NCBI RefSeq assembly: GCF_006345805.1
Contig: NW_021833887.1
Coordinates: 1 to 53,046, forward strand
DNA: 53,046 nt
Direction: 5' to 3'
DNA from: Octopus sinensis
Taxonomy: Eukaryota
The notes under the pieces were generated by a model, which saw nothing but the letters and a program-made list of their open reading frames with translations, did no database searches and was not told the DNA's origin. The first letter of the stretch is position 1; every line of letters starts with the position of its first letter. Made by a program: the position numbers and the translations under genes. Positions 4,272 through 52,426 of the stretch are shown here, in pieces.

Positions 4272-5188
4272 ATTAGGGCAAAAAATTACATACTAGAAGT
4301 TTGAGATCCTTACAAGACAGAATTGATCAATGTATTTTCTGTATTTAAGTGTGAGCGTCAATAACTTTGAAAAGAAATTAATAAATAAAAACTAATATAA
4401 CGGTTATAAACATATGCTTTCGGTGCGAATGGTTTTGTTATATGGTGCCGTATTTTAAAATCCTGATTGCAATCATTGTGCAATGACTAAGGAAAATAGT
4501 CTAATAACGGGGCATATAAGCCCTCGACTGAAAAAACAAGGCTAAGAATATTAATTTATGTTTCTGCGTGTTAGTGTATCAAAAGAGAAACAATTCGCTA
4601 TGAATCTATGGTGGAACGGTATTTACTTACACTTGTATGCGGTTAAGAACAAAACTTCTCTTGCACAAATATCCTCAACACGTGTTATCCTCAACACGCC
4701 TACATTAAATAGTATTATAAATTATTATTTATTGTTATCTATACTAATGTGGACGTAAGATAATTTAATCAAGAGTTACGTATGTTTACTGTTTCTATCT
4801 AAAAGAAAATAAACTATAAGTTCATGTTAATTCATATGCTTATATATATATATATATATGTCTGTGTATATATACGTTCGAAAAAACATAGAAGAACCGT
4901 AAAATGCAAATTATCCATAATAAAAACTTTCTATATACATTTTGAAAAACCCGTTATTTAATAGTTATAAACTTGTGGCAAATCTGTTTCCATAAATAAA
5001 CTTGTATGATTTATACTCATGTAAGATTTAAAATTAATACAAAAAAAAAACTAATTACTTTTTGTTAAACTGGTTAACAATTAAGTAAAATTACGATCAA
5101 TTTTACGATAAATTTATTTGTATATTACTAAATCATATATTCAAAGATTTTGTTATATATATATAGTATCTATCTATTGATCTATCTA

Positions 5189-5226
<38 letters not shown>

Positions 5227-5635
5227 CGCGCGCGTGTGTATGTAACACAGATGTTAGTTGGACACTACCATTTAAGCGTCGAATTGAATTCAATGCCAAG
5301 CTGTTCGAGATCTTAGCACTGTGAATTCAAACGTGTGTGCGTGTGTATATTTGTGTGTATGTATGTATGTATGTATGTATGTATGTATGTATGTATGCAT
5401 GTATGTATGTATTAATGTATGCATGTATGAATGTATGTATTATGTATGTAATGTGCGTATGTATGTATTATGTATATGTGTGTATGTATGCATGTATGTA
5501 TGTAGATGAGATACGACGGCAAGAATGGGTGTAAGTGTTCGTGCGTGTATGCGCGTGTGTATGTATGTATGTGTGTGAGTGCGTGCGTGTGTGCATGTAT
5601 GTGTGTGTTTGTGTGTGTGTGTGTTTTGTGTGTGT

Positions 5636-9163: not shown

Positions 9164-9723
9164 ATCAACTTTTGGCACAAAGCCAGCAATTTTGAGGGAG
9201 GGGTTAGTCGATTATATCGATCTCGGTGTTTAACTGGTACTTGATTTGTAGACCCCGGTAGGATGAAAGGCAAATTCAACCTCGGTAGAATTTGAACTCA
9301 GAACGTAAAGACCGACGAAATACCTATTTCTTTACTACCCACAAGGGGCTAAACACAGAGAAGACAAACGGATTAAGTCGATTATATCGACCCCAGTGCG
9401 TAACTGGTACTTATTTAATCGACCCCGAAAGGATGAAAGGCAAAGTCGACCTCGGCGGAATTTGAACTCAGAACGTAACGGCAGACTAAATACCTATTTC
9501 TTTTCTACCCACAAGGAGCTAAACACAGAGGGGACAAACAAGGACAGACACACGGACTAAGTCGATTACATCGACCCCAGTGCGTAACTGGTACTTATAT
9601 AATCAACCCCGAAAGGATGACAGGCAAAGTCGACCTCGGCGGAATTTGAACTCAACGTAACGGCAGACGAAATACGGCTACGCATTTTGCCCAGCGTGCT
9701 AACAGTTCTGCCAACTCGCCGCC
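9164..9723 (-). mobile_element. Triple nested tRNA-derived SINE with Nin/Deu-like central domain
   Basis: Three copies of GAGTTCAAATT (B box)..TTTGCCTTTCATCCT..GGGGT..AAGTACCAG share one A-box head ending at 9723; degenerate outer TSD 9146-9163 / 9727-9744. Confidence 0.85.
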
Positions 9724-13974: not shown

Positions 13975-14049
13975 TTATCGGTTAGGTGTCCATAAACCAG
14001 TAAATATGCGCACTCTGAAAGACGGTTATATTTTTCTATTGTCGAGCAG

Positions 14050-14215
14050 TATATTCCTGGTTATAGCATATAATGTGTCAGAAACCATTAGTTTTCGCGT
14101 CTACTATCGCACTTGGCAATATTATTAAATATTCTTCAGACCGCCAAGTGCAATCGATAGTGTACGCGAAACCAATGGTTACCTTTTAGTCCGGTTATAT
14201 ACTCTGACTAGGAAA

Positions 14216-14220
<5 letters not shown>
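14050..14220. repeat. Imperfect fold-back (MITE-like) element
   Basis: Nested inverted segments AACCATT/AATGGTT, TTCGCGT/ACGCGAA, ACTATCG/CGATAGT, CACTTGGC/GCCAAGTG. Confidence 0.75.
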
Positions 14221-14281
<61 letters not shown>

Positions 14282-14335
14282 GAAATATTAAAACTATTAA
14301 GTCTCTCTAAAGGAGATTACGGCAGCGTTACTGGA

Positions 14336-14729
14336 TATTAATAGTTATCGCCATACTAATATGGTAGTCTATAAATATAAGACTAAAGCTGTCGCTGATT
14401 AGCTCCAAGAGGCCATCGCCTCTAGCTAGCTATTTGACATGGATGTATTCCACTGTAACTAGGTAAATAAAATCTTCGAACAGACGGTCAGTAGCGACGG
14501 TCAGTATCAATGACTACGCTGCATTGATAAAGGGCAACAACCCTGAAACATGTCTGCAGATGTCTGACTAGCAAGGTGAAGCGGCTGAACTCCCCTGTTC
14601 GAAGGTTTGTAATGGACGCAGGTTCGTGTGTCAAATAGCTAGCTAGAGCCGATGGCCTCTTGGAGCTAATCAGCGACAGTTTTAGTCTTATATTTATAGA
14701 CTACCATATTAGTATGGCGATAACTATTA

Positions 14730-14732
<3 letters not shown>
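14336..14732. repeat. 104-bp inverted-repeat fold-back element in a (TA)n context
   Basis: 14336-14439 vs 14629-14732 match at 102/104; inner inverted repeat CTTCGAACAG/CTGTTCGAAG. Confidence 0.95.
14519..14559 (+). ncRNA. Minimal type-I hammerhead ribozyme, U3-A8 core variant
   Basis: CUGCA-UUGAUAA-AGGG(CAACAA)CCCU-GAAA-CAUG-UC^UGCAG. Stems I and II are perfect, stem III ACAUGU is palindromic, triplet is GUC. Confidence 0.75.
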
Positions 14733-14778
<46 letters not shown>

Positions 14779-15019
14779 AACGCACACGCACATATGTATA
14801 TATACATGTATATATACATACATACACTTATATATATACATATACATATCTATCTATATATCTATATATATATGTATATATGTATATATATATATGATAT
14901 ATGATGTATAAAAACATGTAATATACAAATAAATGTCTGTAAATATAAAACCATCCGAATTTCTGAGTACCTCATTTCTTCTAATATAAAATACCTGTAC
15001 ATCATCTCCAAACCTTCTA

Positions 15020-15103
<84 letters not shown>

Positions 15104-25939: not shown

Positions 25940-27195
25940 GCTTTTTAAAATTTTGGATTTTATTGCGTTTTTAAATTTTGAAATCCATTTTTTTCGAGAA
26001 TTCTATTTTTGAATCAATTTGGAATCTTTTTATTTTTTTTGTTAATTTTAGTTAATTTTTGTTTATTTTTAGATCATTTATTTTCAGATCATTAAATTAT
26101 CAAGTTAAGGAAAACGAGCATTTTCGACGCTTCCTTCCTTTTGCTTTTAATCAAGGTTCTAAGGTCGCAAAAGCTTCTCACGACATTTGTGCTGTGTATG
26201 GAGAGAGTGCCATAGCTGAAAGAACCGCTCCTGATTGGCATGCCAAGTTCAAAAATGGAAATTTTGACCTCAAAGACACACCTCGTTCTGGCCGTCCAGT
26301 TGAGTTCGATGAAGAGCTATTAAACCAACTTTTGCGCTAAAATTCTCGTCGAACAACAAGAGAACTGTCAGAGAAAAGGGAATGCTCCCACACTGCTATA
26401 GAGAAGCATCTTCACTCGATGGGAAAGGTTCAGAAGTATGGAGCATGGGTTCCGCATGCTTTAAGTGACAACAGCAAAAATCAACGAGCCACAATCTCCG
26501 CTGGTTTGCTTGGTCGTCACCGCTCAACTCATGGACACAAGCAACGATTTCTTTACCAAATTGTTATTGGCGACGAAAAATGGTGCCTGTACATCAATAT
26601 GAAGCAGCGTAAGGAATAGCTTAGCCCCGGTAAACAAGCGATACGGCGCGTGAAACAAGATCATCCGCGCAAAACGATGTTGTGCGTATGGTGGGACTGG
26701 GAAGGGATCATCCATTATGAATTGCTTGAACAGAACCAAGCGGTCAATGCGGAACTTTATGTTCAACAGATGGAACGACTCAACACGGCTATTCAAGAGA
26801 AAAGACCTAATCGGCAGCATAGAGCTCTTCTGCTGCACGACAATGCCCGCCCTCATATCGCCAATATGACCAAGGAAGCCATTCAATCGCATGGCTGGGA
26901 AGTGCTGCTACACCCGCCGTACTCTCCTGATTTGGCACCAACGGATTTCCACCTCTTTCGATCTCTTTCAAATGCTATGTGTGGAGTTTCGTTCAATACT
27001 GATGTAGAATTGAGAGCTTGGTTGGATCAATTTTTCGAGTCGAAATCGGGTGATTTCTTACCAACGAGGTATTGAAAATCTTGTTGAACATTAGGAAGAA
27101 GTTTTAAACAACAAGGGTGAATACATTATTGATTAATTAGTTGTTATTTTTTATCAAACCTTTTAAAAAATTTAATTTAAAACATCGGCACGATG
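25940..27195 (+). mobile_element. Mariner transposase pseudogene
   Basis: PRSGRP, WVPHAL, IVIGDEKW, LLHDNARPH, HPPYSPDLAPTDFHLF; internal stops; TIRs incomplete. Confidence 0.92.
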
Positions 27196-27433: not shown

Positions 27434-28673
27434 GAGGGGCGTTCAATAAGTAATGCCCCTGACCCACTTGCATGTGCACTTATTTATACCTCTATAGATT
27501 AAGTGGCGAATTACAGCTCTGAACTAATTGTGGTTTCTGATTTACAGGTGTTTGAACTGAGTCAAGTGTGAAATGGAGCCTGTTGAGTGTCGAGCAGTGA
27601 TCTGGTTTTTGTATTTGAAAGGACGCACACCACGGGAGACTTTTGAAGAAATGAAAGTAACTTATGGTGATGATGCCCCATCATATGACCTTGTAAAACG
27701 CTGGCATTGTGAATTCAAACATAGTCGGAACTCTGTGGAAACAGCTTCCAGATCTGGTCGCCCCCTTCTGCCGTTGATGAGACGTCTGTCCGTCAAGTTG
27801 AGGCTGCCATTTAGGAAGGTCAACGCATAACTATTCGCCAAATAGCCCATAAGGTCAAGATTAGTACCGGGTCTGTGGAAACTATCATTCATGACCATTT
27901 GCATATGCAAAAGGTGTCTGCCAGATGGATTTCCAGGTTGCTCACACCTTTCCAGAAGCAAGAACGCGTTGAGTGCTCGAGGATGAATTTGGAGATGTGC
28001 CAAGAAGATGAGTCAAAATTTTTCAAAAGACTAATCACACAGGATAAAACCTGGGTCCATCACTATGATCCATAGACCAAAGCCCAGTCAATGCAGTGAA
28101 AGCACCGTGACTCACCTCCTCCAAAGAAGGCAAGGGTGCAGCCCTCCGCTGACAAGGTTATGCTCAGTCTTCTGGGACCAGGACGGAGTAGTGATGACAG
28201 ATTTCCTGGCAAAGGGTACCACAAATACAGGAGCCTATTATGCTTCACTTTTGAGGAAATTAAGAGAAGCTATCAAAATCAAGAGGCGGGGCAAGATCAG
28301 CAAAGGCATCCTCCTCCTGCAGGACAACGCTCCGGTCCACAACTCGCGTGTCGCCAAATCAGAAGCACAGGCGTGTAGCTATGAACTCCTCCCCTTGCAC
28401 CCTCTGATTTTCACCTCTTCCCAGCCATGAAGTTGATTTTGAAAGGAAAGCGTTTACCAGATGATGCAGCCTTGATTTCTGAAGTCACGTCGTGGTTGGA
28501 GGACCAAGCTGGGGTCTTCTACAAAAACGGTATCCAGAGTTGTATCAAACGATGGGAGAAATGCATAACTCTGGGTAGTTCCTATGTAGGAAAAGACTAA
28601 TAACTGTGCCGAGTGTCGTTGCTCTACTGCTATGGGAAGTGGGTCAGGGGCATTACTTATTGAACGTCCCTCG
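27433..28673 (+). mobile_element. Mariner (Himar1/irritans-like) with TIRs and TA TSD; pseudogene
   Basis: TIR CGAGGGGCGTTCAATAAGTAATGCCCCTGACCCACTT at both ends; MEPVECRAVI (27573), SARWISRLL, LLQDNAPVH; frameshifts. Confidence 0.95.
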
Positions 28674-32182: not shown

Positions 32183-35100
32183 TTTTTTTTTCTTTTCTTT
32201 TAATTTGCTTCCATTTCTTGCCGAGTGTTTTCCCGACTCCTAGTGCAAAGAAACTCATAGTATACATTGGTAGGCCATTAAACCAAACTCAGTAGTTCGT
32301 TCATTTTTTTTTTTTTTTTAAGTTAAATTAAAATACATGAGCAGCAACAGTTCTCACATCGACAATGCTCTTCTCAATACGTGTGATGTACCAGTTAAGA
32401 CAATCTTTTGCACTTCTTGCAGGGATGGTAAGCCAGGGATCATTCTCATATAATTTTCGGTTCCCTTCTTGATCATTCCTAGTGCTCCTACGATCACTGG
32501 TATTGTAACCGCCTTGAGATGCCACATTTTCTCAATTTCAATGAGTAGGTCTTTATATTTTCTGAGCTTGTCAAACTCTTTCGCTGAGATATTATGATCA
32601 CAGGGGATGCTCATGTCGATCAATAAGCAAACTTTATTGTTTTGGTCTTTCACAACAATATCTGGTTTATTGGCCTTGATGGTTCGGTCTGTATGTATTG
32701 GAAAGTCCCACAGAATGGTTACATTTTCTCCTTCAGTTACAGCCTCAGGGTGGTGATTATACCACTTGTCGGCAGTTTTGATATTGTAATGCCGACTTAT
32801 TAGCCAGTGTAGATATTGGCCAACTCTGTCATGTCTTAATTTATACTCCACTGGAGCTAAGACTTTACATCCAGAGATTAGGTGGTCCACTGTTTCAATC
32901 ATGTCGTTGCAGAATCGGTATTTTGGGTCTGCTCCATTTTTCATCACATTGGCCTGGTAGTTCCGGGTTAATAGGCTTTGATCTTGAGCAGCCAGGATGA
33001 AACCTTCGCTCTCTGCTTTTAGCCCTGAGCTCCGTAGCCACTGATGGGTTTGCTTCTGGTCAACATCAGCTTGTTTGCTGCGGGTCACATATTTGCCGTG
33101 CAGAGGTTTCTCCTCCCACCTATCAGCCAATTGCTCGTGCGCTTTTTTCGTTGCCATTATTTTCACCTTCTTTGCAACAATAATTGCCGTACTTCCCTCG
33201 GGTTGTTCTGTTTGGGTATCCTGCACGAGATCAATAGCAAATTTTTTACTTTCCTTTATGATAGAATGAAGCTTCTTTTGTCTCTCGTGATTTTCCACGA
33301 GCTTTAGCATCCAGTCATTCGATATTTCGAGATATTTGGCCAGTCCAATTGTGGTTGTTTTGTAAGCTAGTTCAAATTGGATCAGGCCTCGACCTCCTTG
33401 GGCTCTGGGAAGGTAAAGGCGATTTACGTCTGCCTTTGGGTGGTGCATCCTATTACAACTCAGCAGCTTGCGTATTTTCCTATCTATATTTTTTATTTCA
33501 CTCATATTCCAGTTCAACACATTGTAGCTATAAGTAACAACTGGAACTGCTAAGGAATTTATAGCTAACACCTTGTTACGTGCATTTAGTTCAGATTTCA
33601 GGACTGCACGAACTCTCCTATAACATTCCTTCCTGATCTTCTCTTTCCTGCTTGCATGCTGAATACCAGAGCCTTCATTTATCCCTAAATATTTGTATGT
33701 TTGTTCTTGCTCAAGCTCTCTTATGACTGTGTCAACATCTAACACGACTGAATTTGTGGTCTTCACTTTCACTTTCTGGAAAATGGCCTTGGCACACTTC
33801 TCAAGTCCAAACTCCATCCCGATGTCATCGCTGAATGCTTTCACAGTGCGCAATAGGCCTTCAAGTTCATTATTGTCTTTACCATAAAGTTTTAAGTCAT
33901 CCATATAAAATAGATGGCTTATTTTTTTATTGGCAATTTTATACCCATACCCTGTTCTGTTTAATTCACTTGTAAGGGGTATTAGGGCTATGCAGAATAT
34001 TAAAGGTGAAAGTGAGTCACCTTGAAAAATTCCACAGTTGATGTTTATATTTTCTGAGGCAAGTACTCCATTAGAGTGGTATAATTGGAGATTCGTATTC
34101 CACAACGACATATTGTGCTTCAGGAAGTTTGAAATCACAGGGGAAATTTTGAAGATGTCCAGCGATCTCAAGATCCATGGATGCGGTATACTGTCGAAGG
34201 CCTTTTTATAGTCAATCCATGCGGTGCTGAGATTTCTGCGCTTGTTGTGACAGTTCTCAAGGATCATACGATTGATTAGCAGTTGATCTTTGCATCCGTA
34301 AGAGCCTCGGCGGCACCCTTTTTGTTCAATGGGGAAAATATCGTCCTTCTCCATGAATGCATATGTTTTCTCCGCCAGGATAGATGTTAGGATTTTATAC
34401 GTGGTGGATAGACAGGTTATAGGCCGATAGTTTTTTGGAAGGTTGGTTTCGTTATTCTTTGGGAGTAGGTAACTAATGCCACTTGCTAACCATTCAGGTG
34501 TTTTCTTTGGGTCTCTCATAATTCCATTGAGCAGCTGAACTAGCTTACCGTGTCGCATGGGAGCGATGCGAGCCAGAAATTCGGCACCCTATCTTTACCG
34601 GGGGATTTCCAATTATGGGCCTTCGTGAGTGCCTTTCTTAGGTCTGCTATTGTGATATCTTCCCATGCTTTTGTTGTAAATTTTGGTAGGATCCTTCAGT
34701 TTGTATAATCCAGTCTGCATTTATGTTGTACGTCTTCTTGTCACTCCAAATACTTTTCCAAAAGTTTTGAACTTCTTCCATGGGAGGGGGGTCTTTAACG
34801 GTTACTTTCTCCTTCCCTATTTCTCTGTAGAATTTTTTGGCATTGGATGTGAACAGCTTATTTTGCTTGTAAAACTTGTTTCTCTTCTCAAATCTTCGTA
34901 TTCTTTGGGCTTTTGCTTGGACTTTTTGTTTCAGCGTTTCTTTTATTGATATCAGTTCTTCTCTTGGTGAGGATCCAAATTTTCTCTTCATCTTTCTTCC
35001 TGTTCTGGATCTTACATCATTTCCACATATTAGTTCATTTAATATTGATATTTCCCCTCTCATAAATTCAATCTCTTTTTCAATTTTACTTCTCCAGGTT

Positions 35101-36150
35101 GATTTCTTCTCAGGTTTGGTTTTCTTTGTTTTTTCGGGCATACAGCTGGTTTCAATTGCCCTAGCAGAAGCGTAAATAACTTCATTTAACTCAGTAAAAT
35201 CAGGTTTTAATTCTCGTATTATTTCATTTGTTACATAGTTGCCAATTTGGATTTGTTTTTTATTTTGGTTTGTATTTGAGAGTTTATGAAGTGGTTCTCT
35301 ATCATTCATACTTGTATGTCTTACAACTTCAAGTGTATTCAGGATTTTCTGCCTCATTTCTGCCATAGACTCTCTGTGTTCTTCAGCAAATGCGAGATCT
35401 TCAGTTACTGTTGTTTTTTCGTTTTCCTGGCTATCTTTAACAGGTACAATAGAATTTCTTGTATCTTCAGGCCTTTGCGTACTTTGGTCAGATGGCAGTC
35501 TTCCCTTAAGCCTCGTGGCGGGCTATACTGTTCATCTGATTCTTCATTTCCTTTGTGTCTTATATTTATGTCATCTTCCGTTGCGTGCTTGATCGCGCTT
35601 ATTTCACTGTCTGTGAGTCTGTTATTTCTAAGGATATCCCTCCTCACATTTGCTAATTTGTTCTCGTCCAAATAGGGCCTACTGTCTTGATTCCGTGTTC
35701 TCCATATACTGTAAGAGTTTGCGGTGTGTCTCTCTTGAGATGGCCTACCTAATGCATAGTAATAAGCGTATATTACTTCTTTATATACTCTTCTCGGGTC
35801 CATTTGTTCCGCTTACATTTTTCTTTCTGTGGTGGTTGTGGTGGTGAACTTAGAGGGCTCGAGTTGGGGGATTTCCCGTTCAAGTGACCATCCATGTCCG
35901 TATTCGGAGAAGAGTTTGTGCCAGTTGATGACTTTTCGATCCCAGGCTGGCTCTTCCCTGGGGGACGCGCTTCCAGATTAACCATAGGACAAGCGATTTG
36001 GTATACTGATTTAGTTTTCCTTTTAGTTTCCAAAAACATTTTGGTGCTACGATAATGTTATCATTTTTTAGCTTTGGTTGGCTCGTGGGGAGACGGCCAT
36101 CATTGCCGTTACAATTATAATCGTACCATTATAGCAGCCGTAGTCGGCTT
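32182..36150 (-). mobile_element. Near-full-length R4/Dong-clade non-LTR retrotransposon (RT plus REL endonuclease), frameshifted
   Basis: ORF pieces 35773-36039, 35405-35803, 34647-35366 and 32354-34558; both ends lie in (TAA)n. Confidence 0.92.
32354..34558 (-). CDS. RT-zinc knuckle-REL portion of the R4/Dong ORF (734 aa)
   Basis: NYRPIT, IDYKKAFDSI, GIFQGDSLSP, YMDD, YxxC..H..C (first Cys replaced), RHD, KPDI..IDM..KYKDL. Confidence 0.9.
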   Translation of the reverse strand: MRHGKLVQLLNGIMRDPKKTPEWLASGISYLLPKNNETNLPKNYRPITCLSTTYKILTSILAEKTYAFMEKDDIFPIEQKGCRRGSYGCKDQLLINRMILENCHNKRRNLSTAWIDYKKAFDSIPHPWILRSLDIFKISPVISNFLKHNMSLWNTNLQLYHSNGVLASENININCGIFQGDSLSPLIFCIALIPLTSELNRTGYGYKIANKKISHLFYMDDLKLYGKDNNELEGLLRTVKAFSDDIGMEFGLEKCAKAIFQKVKVKTTNSVVLDVDTVIRELEQEQTYKYLGINEGSGIQHASRKEKIRKECYRRVRAVLKSELNARNKVLAINSLAVPVVTYSYNVLNWNMSEIKNIDRKIRKLLSCNRMHHPKADVNRLYLPRAQGGRGLIQFELAYKTTTIGLAKYLEISNDWMLKLVENHERQKKLHSIIKESKKFAIDLVQDTQTEQPEGSTAIIVAKKVKIMATKKAHEQLADRWEEKPLHGKYVTRSKQADVDQKQTHQWLRSSGLKAESEGFILAAQDQSLLTRNYQANVMKNGADPKYRFCNDMIETVDHLISGCKVLAPVEYKLRHDRVGQYLHWLISRHYNIKTADKWYNHHPEAVTEGENVTILWDFPIHTDRTIKANKPDIVVKDQNNKVCLLIDMSIPCDHNISAKEFDKLRKYKDLLIEIEKMWHLKAVTIPVIVGALGMIKKGTENYMRMIPGLPSLQEVQKIVLTGTSHVLRRALSM

Positions 36151-42939: not shown

Positions 42940-44176
42940 GTGTGTGCGGACGGTATTTGAGGACAGATTTAAGGTTTAAAAAAACGCTTATATAATAACA
43001 GAAAGAAACTGTATTTTAATATAAATAACATAAACGTAAAATATATAATCATTTATATAATTTCATTCAATAAAATCCCCATAAGCATGTATAACTGCCA
43101 CTAGGTGGGGTTGAAATCGTTTATAATCTCGGAGTAAGTGGTCTTTGTTCCTATCAGACATGACTCGAGCTATGACGGCTTTCAAAAATCTTTGGTGCTA
43201 TGGGGAATGTTTATTGATATTTTTCTCAACGATGCCCCATACATAGTAGTCAAGTGGATTGAAATCTGGAGAAATTAGAGGAACAAATGTTGGGGGTGGT
43301 GTGATCATGCAAATTGTCTGCCATCCATTCTTGTGGCATTTGAGTCTTGTGTGATAGTGCAGAATCTTGTTGACACAAGGCCTTCCATTGCATATATTGT
43401 TGATCCAAGCCTTAACAACTTTATTCAGAACCTCAATATACGCAGTAGTATTCATCTTAAGGACGTGTGCATAAAAGTGAGGAGGCATCAATTGTCCTTC
43501 ATTACTAAAAACGCCCAAAATCATGATACTTGCAATAAATTTTGTGTGAATTATTCTTGGACCCTCAGAAGGGTCTGCACATAACCATCTGTCATTTCTT
43601 CTGTTAGTTTTCTGGTTTTGGTCAAAGTTTTTCTCATCTGAGAAAAACCAAACCACACCATCTTCTGATGGTTTTTTAAGTTTGTTCAAAAGTCTTTTGG
43701 ATCTGATTAAATGGTTTTCGTTTGATTTTCTTTCTTTCTCTTCTGGCATGAATTGATCTGATCTCTCCTCATCACGTAGGATTTGTATCTGATGTCTTCA
43801 CGCACAACGTTTCTGACTGTTTTTTCCTGGGTTGTATTCACTATTTTGCTTTACTTTCTGAATAAATTCAGGTGTCCTGAAGAAATAAGATCGTTTGGAA
43901 TGTTTTTTTTTTTACATTTTGATAAAGGTAACACGCTTTCATCTTCTTTCTCTAACTCACACCGTATCTTAAAAATCAAAGATCTTGCAATTTTCAGAAA
44001 ACGAGAGATTTCTAAATCACTATGCTTACCCTTCAAAGCCACAATTACAGCATGCCTTTCAATTTCATTAGCAAGCATAGGACCGCTCATTGTAATTTTC
44101 TGATGGAGAAGTTCAATAAAGATTAGTCAAATAATGACTAAAAGTGCATGCGTCCTCAAATACTGTCCGCACCCAG
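42940..44176 (-). mobile_element. maT/DD37D-like Tc1-mariner element, pseudogene
   Basis: TIR GTGCGGAC[AG]GTATTTGAGGAC at both ends; FFSDEKNF, NDRWL, SPDFNPLDYYVWG. Confidence 0.85.
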
Positions 44177-50717: not shown

Positions 50718-52426
50718 GGCGCAGGATTGGCTTTGTGGTAAGTAGCTTGCTAACCAATCACATGGTTCCGGGGTTCAGTCCCACTGCGTGGCATTTGGGC
50801 AAGTGTCTTCTGCTATAGCCACGGGCGACCAATGCCTTGTGAGTGGATTTGGTAGACGAAACTGAAAGAAGCCTGTCGTATATGTATATAATATATATAT
50901 TATATATATACGAGGGGCGTTCAATAAGTAATGCCCCTGACCCACTTCCCATAGCAGTAGAGCAACGAAAATGGCACAGGTATTAGTCTTTTTCTACATA
51001 GGAACCACCCAGAGTTACGCATTTCTCCCATCGTTTGATGCGGCTCTGGAGACCGTTTTTCTAGAATAACCCAGCTTGGTCCTCCACCTCAACGTGACTT
51101 CAGAATCAAGGCTGCATCATCTGGGGAAACGCTTTCCTTTCAAAAAACAATTCATGATTGGGAAGAGGTGAAAATCAGAGGGTGCAAGGTCAGGAAAGTA
51201 GTAGGGGGATGGGGAGGAGTTCATAGCCATACGCCTGTGCTTCTGATCTGGCGACAAGCGAGTTGTGGACCGGAGCGTTGTCCTGCAGGAGGAGGATGCC
51301 TTTGCTGATCTTGCCCCGCCTCTTGATTTTGATAACTTCTCTTAATTTCCTCAAAAGTGAAGCAAATAGGCTCCTGCAATTGTGGTACCCTTTGCCAGGA
51401 AATCTGTCATCACTACTCCGTCCTGGTCCCAGAAGACTGTGAGCATGACCTTGCCAGCGGAGGCCTGCACCCTTGCCTTTTGGAGGGGGTGAGTCACGGT
51501 GCTTCCACTGCATTGACTGGGCTTTGGTCTCTGGATCATCGTGATGGACCCAGGTTTCATCCTGTGTAATCAGTCTTTTGAAAAATTTTGACTCATCTTC
51601 TTGGCACATCTCCAAATTCACCCTCGAGCATTCGACGCGTTCTTGCTTCTGGAAAGGCGTGAGCAACCTGGAAATCCATCTGGCAGACACCTTTTGCATA
51701 TGCAAATGGTCATGAATGATAGTTTCCACAGACCCGGTACTAATCTTGACCTCATGGACTATTTGGCGAATAATTATGCGTCGATCTTCCAAAATGGCAG
51801 CCTCAACATGACGGACAGATGCCCCATCAATGGCAGAAGGGGGTGACCAGATCTGGGAGCTGTTTCCACAGAGGTTCCGACCATGTTTGAATTCACGATG
51901 CTAGCGTTTTACAAGGTCATATGATGGGGCATCATCACCATAAGTTACTTTCATTCATTAAAAGTCTCCCGTGGTGTGCGTCCTTTCAAATACAAAAACC
52001 GGATCACTGCTCGACACTCAACAGGCTCCATTTCACACTGACTCGGTTCAAACACCTGTAAATCAGAAACCACAATTAATTCAGAGCTGTAATTTGCCAC
52101 TTACTATAGAGATATAAATGATTGCACAAGCAAAATTTCAGCTAGATCAAACAACTGCAAGTGGGTCAGAGGCATTACTTATTGAACTCCTCGTATATAT
52201 ATGTTGTGTGTGTGTGTGTGTTTGTGTGTCTGGTTTGTCCCCCTAGCATTGCTTGACAACCGATGCTGGTGTGTACGTCCCGTCACTTACGCGGTTCGGC
52301 AAAAAGATCCTGATAGATAAGTTCTGGGCTTACAAAGAATAAGTCCGGGGTCGATTTGCTCGACTAAAGGCGGTACTCCAGCATGGCCGCAGTCAAATGA
52401 CTGAAACAAGTAAAAGAGTAAAAGAG
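50718..52426 (+). mobile_element. SINE split by a mariner (head 50718-50880, tail ~52220-52426)
   Basis: Head and tail match 17664-18060. Confidence 0.85.
50911..52193 (-). mobile_element. Mariner, same family as 27433-28673; pseudogene
   Basis: Same TIRs and TA flanks; ITQDETWVHH, LLQDNAPVH. Confidence 0.95.

What the first reader, a model, noticed from the sequence alone, without database searches (positions are those of the whole stretch)
14336..14732. ~400-nt rod-like fold-back with a U3-A8 covariant hammerhead at its apex
Seen: 104-bp arms (102/104), an inner stem AATCTTCGAACAG/CTGTTCGAAGGTT, then GTCAG/CTGAC, enclosing CUGCA-UUGAUAA-AGGG(CAACAA)CCCU-GAAA-CAUG-UC^UGCAG, with predicted cleavage after 14554. 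Established: C3-G8 is a Watson-Crick tertiary pair and U3-A8 is a known functional covariant, so the two core changes are compensatory rather than simple decay. Inference: a young viroid/retrozyme-like or inverted-pLTR element whose RNA is a self-cleaving long hairpin and a potential ADAR or small-RNA substrate.
Basis: partly seen in the sequence, partly recalled or inferred. Interest (0 to 1): 0.85.

Follow-up and report, generated by a model that had tools for sequence, protein, structure and literature searches.

The report
Inverted insertion of a hammerhead retrozyme
The long hairpin is one copy of a 362-base repeat with over a thousand hammerhead-ribozyme-like copies in this genome, likely pasted in by a Penelope retrotransposon's enzyme; its mirror-image arm differs from copy to copy and is likely built at insertion, and this copy's own ribozyme is predicted to be misfolded.

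Summary
The sequence description holds: arms 102/104, type I hammerhead at 14519-14559, U3-A8 core, cleavage predicted after 14554. But the object is not a 397-nt rod RNA. It is one insertion (14279-14732, in (TA)n) of a 362-bp repeat with at least 1,303 hammerhead motif hits genome-wide. Copies show Penelope-element (PLE) hallmarks: two fixed 3' ends 56 nt apart (a 'tail'), variable 5' truncation, partial tandems, and inverted halves of variable length in 76 of 117 insertions. U3-A8 is inherited, not repaired here: 187 of 189 exact copies carry it, none has C3-G8. It is published for PLE hammerheads, and an intact resident Neptune-like PLE has a candidate core of the same type. Subfamilies covary in stem I and swap one palindromic loop III for another, which suggests selection on the ribozyme. 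This copy has a private 12-nt swap predicted to trap the core (stem I probability 0.05, against at least 0.88 in 46 of 53 others). Best reading: a non-LTR retrozyme mobilised by a PLE. Inverted insertions pair one long with one short end in 51 of 54 cases. The scan reported similar inverted PLE stumps in a shark. Cleavage, circles and expression are untested.

The parts
14217..14278 (.). (TA)31 microsatellite, left side of the likely target
   Evidence: 151 of 192 outer 3' ends of the family abut TA-rich flanks
14279..14439 (-). inverted, 5'-truncated copy of unit positions 202-362 (the 'long' 3' end, facing outward)
   Evidence: 96% identical to natural unit L006:1488-1849
14336..14439 (-). 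left arm of the fold-back (unit 202-305 inverted)
   Evidence: 102/104 to the right arm
14440..14732 (+). forward, 5'-truncated copy of unit positions 14-305 (the 'short' 3' end)
   Evidence: 94% identical to the unit
14471..14607 (+). inner stem (14471-14483 with 14595-14607), intrinsic to the unit, enclosing the hammerhead arm
   Evidence: pairs kept across 34 aligned rows by one-sided G-U changes, no two-sided change
14499..14510 (+). private 12-nt replacement; 14505-14512 becomes complementary to 14522-14529 (end of stem I plus core)
   Evidence: single place in the genome at <=1 mismatch; alignment; folding
14519..14561 (+). type I hammerhead: 5-bp stem I, U3-A8 core, 4-bp stem II closed by A10.1-U11.1, 6-nt loop II, 2-bp stem III inside a 6-nt palindrome, cleavage predicted at 14554/14555
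14733..14777 (.). (TA)n, right side of the likely target

Best explanation
This is one genomic insertion of a 362-bp non-coding repeat that carries a type I hammerhead motif with a family-wide U3-A8 core, likely a non-LTR retrozyme copied in trans by a Penelope-like (probably Neptune-clade) reverse transcriptase-endonuclease. Inferred cycle: source copies are transcribed; tandem transcripts self-cleave, probably as dimers through the palindromic stem III, and may be ligated to 362-nt circles. The PLE protein nicks both strands of a (TA)n target and starts reverse transcription at two fixed sites on the RNA, 56 nt apart (unit ~306 and ~362). When both nicked strands prime, one at each site, two 5'-truncated cDNAs are joined head to head. 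That gives an inverted repeat of arbitrary length with the tail on one end only. Here the two cDNAs cover unit 14-305 and 202-362, and their overlap is the 104-bp arm. Read-through transcription of this locus would give a long dsRNA as a by-product. A private 12-nt swap is predicted to trap this copy's catalytic core. Shown: anatomy, copy numbers, end statistics, core tallies, covariation. Predicted: folding. Inferred: cleavage, circles, the identity of the mobilising PLE, two-strand priming.
For: Family size: 189 exact 31-mer hammerhead copies, control 0; 1,303 motif hits at <=2 mismatches, control 1. Unit period 358-365 bp in natural tandems, GC 0.41-0.42. Of 117 distinct insertions drawn from 132 loci: 76 inverted, 71 run across the unit junction, 163 of 192 outer ends fall at unit 300-310 or 354-362, 151 of 192 abut TA-rich DNA. 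75 of 76 inverted insertions have both 3' ends outward. After dropping 4 likely segmental duplicates, 51 of 54 classifiable inverted insertions pair a long with a short end (binomial p 1.5e-12 against 0.5), while uninverted copies use both ends (20 long, 14 short, 7 other). Selection on the ribozyme: one stem I pair is G-C in 22, A-U in 9 and G-U in 3 of 34 rows; loop III switches between two palindromes, N7 varies, U3-A8 stays. The genome holds intact 781-aa RT + GIY-YIG frames with a Cys-X4-Cys-X2-Cys linker. These elements also end at two sites and abut (TA)n, and have a candidate minimal hammerhead with U3-A8 and the same stem III palindrome (23 of 50 fetched loci, 19 distinct places). Literature: tail and inverted truncated copy as PLE hallmarks (PMC8557442, PMC3846280); tail equals the span between two RT start sites, both strands cut and extended, dimer predicted (PMC11167929); retrozymes as PLE derivatives (bioRxiv 10.64898/2026.07.22.740005).
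Against: No sequence homology between the unit and the sampled autonomous PLEs beyond the ribozyme core, so the partner is unproven; only 150 of 5,029 GIY-YIG candidates were scored and 50 loci fetched. Only 5 of 117 insertions hold two or more complete same-strand hammerheads, so long tandem arrays are rare in the sample. 5' ends do not pile up at the cleavage site (5 of 193 within 4 nt, about the uniform expectation; the sample was chosen for bearing the hammerhead). The stem I covariation is one inherited change between subfamilies, not many events, and only 2 of 83 predicted pairs show a two-sided change. Rfam finds no hammerhead. In the preprint only 1 of 9 tested Xenopus retrozyme dimers cleaved, and in PMC11167929 the PLE hammerhead was not needed for insertion in vitro. 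Within-insertion arms (median 97.4%) are closer than typical copies (94.2%) but not closer than the best other copy (98.1%), so a single RNA template for both arms is not proven.
Confidence: 0.8

Rival explanations
1. The copies are 5'-truncated stumps (solo pseudo-LTRs) of an autonomous PLE not yet found, rather than an independent non-autonomous family.
For: All insertion hallmarks are those of PLEs; the GIY-YIG search covered a small part of the candidates.
Against: In 71 of 117 insertions the sequence upstream of unit position 1 is the unit's own 3' end. Three loci with widely spaced same-strand hammerheads held duplicated flanks or other repeats, and none of the listed frames resembled a PLE protein (read by eye). 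At least three subfamilies keep the same 362-365 bp unit.
Confidence: 0.1
2. Same family and same PLE mobilisation, but the hammerhead is a passenger: uncut linear read-through RNA is the template, partial tandems arise by template jumps, and no circle is involved.
For: No 5' pile-up at the cleavage site; few true dimers; the hammerhead is dispensable for PLE insertion in vitro (PMC11167929).
Against: Core, stem I and the palindromic loop III are kept across subfamilies 84-92% identical. Same-strand blocks longer than one unit are common, up to 1,258 nt, which a circle regenerates easily and a shrinking linear lineage does not (inference).
Confidence: 0.25
3. One reading: a conserved ~400-nt rod-like, viroid-like self-cleaving hairpin RNA is the functional unit.
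For: The hairpin is real and very stable.
Against: Arm length and breakpoints differ between insertions and 41 of 117 have no inversion. Natural monomers fold as branched circles (z -3.7 to -7.8 in 4 of 4). This copy's stem I probability is 0.05.
Confidence: 0.03
4. A MITE or fold-back DNA transposon with long terminal inverted repeats.
For: Inverted ends in a TA context.
Against: The ends are asymmetric (tail on one side), inner breakpoints vary, and copies are 5'-truncated and tandem.
Confidence: 0.02

Closest known systems
Metazoan non-LTR retrozymes (Cervera and de la Pena 2020, PMC7229834; mussel repeats of 350-390 bp)
   Same: Small non-coding repeat in a similar size range, GC under 45%, type I hammerhead, tandem copies, self-paired monomer fold.
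   Different: U3-A8 core and A10.1-U11.1 closing pair; mostly dispersed partial tandems in the sample; clear PLE tail and 5' inversions ('inverted' has 0 occurrences in that paper's main text). Circles and cleavage not shown here.
Penelope-like element insertions with inverted pLTR and tail (PMC3846280, PMC8557442; mechanism PMC11167929)
   Same: Inverted 5'-truncated copy next to a forward copy, tail on one end, partial tandems, (TA)n targets, hammerhead in the repeat.
   Different: No ORF; tail 56 nt against the 30-40 bp quoted; a full-size hammerhead with loop I/II elements rather than a minimal one.
U3-A8 hammerheads: Cercyon PLE of Schistosoma mansoni (PMC4209133, about 1,300 hits) and natural variants in PMC3088659
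   Same: Same core covariation, described as active in vitro in PMC3088659.
   Different: There in minimal PLE hammerheads or scattered examples; here fixed across a multi-subfamily retrozyme-like repeat.
Retrozymes as non-autonomous PLE derivatives (bioRxiv 10.64898/2026.07.22.740005)
   Same: Same proposed parasite-host relation.
   Different: The preprint argues from co-occurrence and pLTR homology in Xenopus; here the support is insertion-end signatures, and pLTR homology was not found.

Membership tests
Type I hammerhead ribozyme | Core 3-9 and 12-14 with a 3-8 Watson-Crick pair, A15.1-U16.1, H17 | tested here: met
   Met as the published U3-A8 variant (PMC3088659, PMC4209133)
Type I hammerhead ribozyme | Stems I and II can form around the core | tested here: inconclusive
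   Family: stem I probability >=0.88 in 46 of 53 copies folded. This copy: 0.05, forcing the fold costs 3.2 kcal/mol
Type I hammerhead ribozyme | Short stem III with palindromic loop, allowing a dimeric fold | tested here: met
   Two alternative palindromes across subfamilies
Type I hammerhead ribozyme | Match to an Rfam hammerhead model | tested here: not met
   No hammerhead family among 50 matches at E<=1
Type I hammerhead ribozyme | Self-cleavage | not testable with these tools
   Needs in vitro transcription
Non-LTR retrozyme | 170-400 nt non-coding unit, low GC, one type I hammerhead per unit | tested here: met
   358-365 bp, GC 0.41-0.42; no frame of 150 aa or more over the window copy
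Non-LTR retrozyme | Tandem copies with two or more hammerheads | tested here: met
   5 of 117 insertions, up to three in a row; most are partial tandems
Non-LTR retrozyme | Abundant circular monomer RNA | not testable with these tools
   Only contigs of runs guessed to be RNA were on offer
PLE-mobilised element | Two 3' ends separated by a tail | tested here: met
   163 of 192 outer ends at two sites 56 nt apart
PLE-mobilised element | Inverted 5'-truncated copy, partial tandems, microsatellite target | tested here: met
   76 of 117 inverted, 71 wrap the junction, 151 of 192 ends TA-rich
PLE-mobilised element | Homology to the pLTR of a resident autonomous PLE | tested here: inconclusive
   Only the core motif is shared with the sampled Neptune-like family; most PLE candidates were not sampled
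Autonomous PLE | RT + GIY-YIG ORF between the repeats | tested here: not met
   tblastn of the 781-aa protein against the window returned nothing; none seen in three spaced-hammerhead loci
Viroid / viroid-like RNA | Fixed rod-like RNA replicating without a DNA form | tested here: not met
   Over 1,300 genomic motif hits and variable arms; RNA-to-RNA replication itself was not testable
MITE / fold-back DNA transposon | Fixed, symmetric terminal inverted repeats | tested here: not met

The most novel reading that the evidence does not exclude
This family is a self-recording assay of PLE transposition: a dimeric Neptune-type protein primes from both strands of a (TA)n target on one circular 362-nt retrozyme RNA, each subunit at its own fixed start site. 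That would explain in one step the one-sided tail, the head-to-head inversions and the longer-than-unit copies, and would show by insertion signature that animal retrozymes ride on PLE machinery. Each such insertion would also seed a near-perfect dsRNA hairpin in a genome that probably edits RNA heavily.
Probability: 0.35. Interest if true: 0.65.

Novelty: new member of a known kind. Interest (0 to 1): 0.38.

Why it matters
The hairpin itself is an ordinary by-product of PLE-type insertion. The family is more useful. Retrozyme mobilisation by PLEs has been argued from co-occurrence and pLTR trees; this family carries the PLE tail and inversion signature itself, sits beside intact 781-aa PLE frames, and is small enough for an in vitro test. 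The near-obligate pairing of one long and one short end (51 of 54) is a number that any model of PLE priming has to explain. I found no paper describing this family: searches 'hammerhead + Penelope + octopus', 'retrozyme + octopus' and 'cephalopod + Penelope + Neptune + octopus genome'; a 2026 octopus repeat annotation has 0 occurrences of hammerhead, retrozyme or ribozyme in its main text (supplements not read). Repbase and Dfam could not be checked and may already list it.

Tried and rejected
Rfam scan: no hammerhead, only microsatellite-driven miRNA noise. Expression: no RNA holder listed on record. Contigs of 4 runs from 4 studies, only guessed to be RNA, cover the family; loose ends at 14440 in two runs read the family's tandem junction, and no listed piece spans this copy's inversion junction (tables cut, possibly other individuals or species). 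This is not evidence for or against expression, editing or circles; A>G and T>C places cannot be told from copy differences. Search for an autonomous form through widely spaced hammerhead pairs: not PLEs. Search for an empty allele through the right flank failed because that flank is itself a repeat. Local alignment of unit parts to 12 GIY-YIG loci: one weak hit (z 5.2) to an unrelated small hammerhead-bearing element beside a PLE, none to PLE ends. One copy could not be parsed in the folding comparison. PMC7151607 and PMC10886601 added nothing relevant. Look-ups of earlier findings by sequence and by place were empty.

Full report
Observation. The 397 nt fold at -238 kcal/mol, z -23.9. The type I hammerhead at 14519-14559 was the only hit of my paired-core scan in the window: 5-bp stem I, core with U3 and A8, 4-bp stem II closed by A-U rather than the usual G-C, 6-nt loop II, and a 2-bp stem III inside a 6-nt palindrome, with C17 at 14554. 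Rfam found no hammerhead at E<=1. The window is microsatellite-rich and its long frames look repeat-derived. The genome is 2.72 Gb. I take it to be an octopus or a close relative, from a recalled SINE near 9206-9675 and the genome's make-up; that is recall and was not tested.

It is a repeat family. The 189-bp middle gave 2,006 first-look candidates, with the 40 scored at 92-100% identity. A 31-letter hammerhead pattern open at positions 3, 7 and 8 has 189 exact hits, control 0; a looser motif has 1,303 hits at up to 2 mismatches, control 1. Natural tandems give a period of 358-365 bp. Against a natural 362-bp unit (L006:1488-1849), the window copy reads: (TA)31, inverted unit 362-202 (14279-14439), forward unit 14-305 (14440-14732), (TA)n. 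The 104-bp arm is the overlap of the two pieces, and the element begins 57 bp left of the reported start.

The fold-back is made per insertion. From 132 loci I extracted 117 distinct insertions, all ascertained by a hammerhead-region match. 76 have an inverted part, with the shorter side 21 to 553 nt long; 41 have none. 71 run across the unit junction; 5 hold two or more complete same-strand hammerheads. Of 192 outer 3' ends, 88 lie at unit 354-362, 75 at 300-310 and 29 elsewhere; 151 abut TA-rich DNA. 75 of 76 inverted insertions have both 3' ends outward. These are the PLE hallmarks described in PMC8557442 (passages read) and PMC3846280 (passages read): an inverted 5'-truncated copy, a tail on one end, partial tandems and (TA)n targets. 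PMC11167929 (parts 1-2 of 4 read) shows that the tail is the span between two RT start sites, that the protein cuts and extends both target strands, and that it is predicted to be a dimer.

A sharper pattern. After dropping 4 likely segmental duplicates (113 insertions, 72 inverted), 51 inverted insertions pair a long end with a short end, 2 are long-long, 1 is short-short, 17 have an unclassified end and 1 has another orientation; 51 of 54 gives p 1.5e-12 against 0.5. Uninverted copies use both ends (20 long, 14 short, 7 other). 'Tail on one end' is known qualitatively; the near-obligate pairing suggests one start site per target strand (inference). In 51 insertions compared, the two arms are 97.4% alike at the median, against 94.2% for typical other copies and 98.1% for the best other copy. 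That fits a common source but does not prove one RNA molecule.

U3-A8. Of the 189 exact copies, 187 are U3-A8, one is C3-A8, one is U3-G8 and none is C3-G8. Sister subfamilies 84-92% identical keep U3-A8 while N7, loop II and loop III change; loop III moves between two palindromes, and one stem I pair is G-C in 22, A-U in 9 and G-U in 3 of 34 rows. This is modest evidence of selection: one inherited two-sided change, and only 2 of 83 predicted pairs show any. The variant is published: natural and active in vitro (PMC3088659, passages read), and about 1,300 hits in Schistosoma Cercyon PLEs (PMC4209133, parts 1-2 of 4 read). It is a founder trait here, not a repair in this copy.

This copy is predicted to be impaired. 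Positions 14499-14510 replace the family's loop I sequence and occur once in the genome. The swap makes 14505-14512 complementary to 14522-14529. Stem I probability is 0.05 and forcing the active fold costs 3.2 kcal/mol; the same 189-nt span has stem I probability of at least 0.88 in 46 of 53 other copies, typically at 0.3 kcal/mol (one more copy was not parsed). Four natural monomers folded as circles are branched, 62-68% paired, z -3.7 to -7.8, not rods.

The likely mobiliser. A GIY-YIG search scored 150 of 5,029 candidates and showed several 781-aa open frames. [quoted passage not shown] These elements abut (TA)n, end at two sites about 28 nt apart, and have a candidate minimal hammerhead with U3-A8 and the same stem III palindrome in 23 of 50 fetched loci, 19 distinct places; its stem I is weak. 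Against a firm link: no homology to the unit beyond that core. Atlas neighbours of the protein are GIY-YIG / HTH_animal clusters at 0.96-0.98.

Mechanism and rivals. Best reading (0.8): a non-LTR retrozyme mobilised in trans by a PLE, the fold-back being two head-to-head cDNAs. Within it, whether the template is a circle or uncut linear RNA is open (passenger rival 0.25). Templates were uncut at the hammerhead, since copies read through it and 5' ends show no excess there (5 of 193, with ascertainment bias). Same-strand blocks reach 1,258 nt, which favours a circle or template jumps. Solo pLTR of an unseen PLE: 0.1. Conserved viroid-like rod: 0.03. MITE: 0.02.

Comparison. It works like the metazoan non-LTR retrozymes of PMC7229834 (section 14 and passages read), whose mussel members are 350-390 bp and form circles, and it meets their sequence-level criteria; cleavage and circles could not be tested. 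The preprint 10.64898/2026.07.22.740005 (parts 1-3 of 5 read; supplements closed) proposes retrozymes as PLE derivatives, and found cleavage in only 1 of 9 dimers. Searches for a description of this family found none; the supplement of PMC8557442 lists only Naiad and Hydra PLEs in its four octopus rows.

Verdict. Real feature, new member of a known kind, interest 0.38. The hairpin is a by-product; the value lies in a small, tractable family that bears the PLE insertion signature and a near-obligate long/short end pairing.

Noticed in passing
L143-L147 (e.g. G000:C1:207474000-207479500): Young Neptune-like PLE with an intact 781-aa RT + GIY-YIG frame, an upstream 479-aa frame, two 3' ends and a candidate U3-A8 minimal hammerhead; several near-identical full frames.
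   Followed up: partly
window 14905-15022: Another very young AT-rich repeat in (TA)n: 1,558 candidates, top 40 at 98-99% identity, with a shared end and variable other end; possibly a PLE stump.
   Followed up: partly
window 13975-14213: About 240-bp element with imperfect inverted ends and an internal palindrome between microsatellites; MITE-like.
   Followed up: no
L149 about 4850-5250 (+), and L157 about 2667 (+): Different small elements with C3-G8 hammerhead motifs and a palindromic stem III; likely further retrozyme-like families in this genome.
   Followed up: no
window 32354-35522 (-): Non-LTR retrotransposon in two frames (291 and 744 aa), resembling R4/Dong (label recalled), flanked by (TAT)n arrays.
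   Followed up: no
window 26620-27075, 27731-28410, 43198-43797, 51190-51873: Tc1/mariner-like transposase fragments; two copies of one element form the 395-nt and 170-nt inverted pairs seen.
   Followed up: no
window 9206-9675: 2.7 tandem copies of a 170-bp unit resembling an octopus SINE (label recalled).
   Followed up: no
L061 2300-6300 and L062 3277-4714: Tandemly duplicated frames with a Cys/His zinc-knuckle-like motif, resembling a retroelement ORF1, next to family copies.
   Followed up: no
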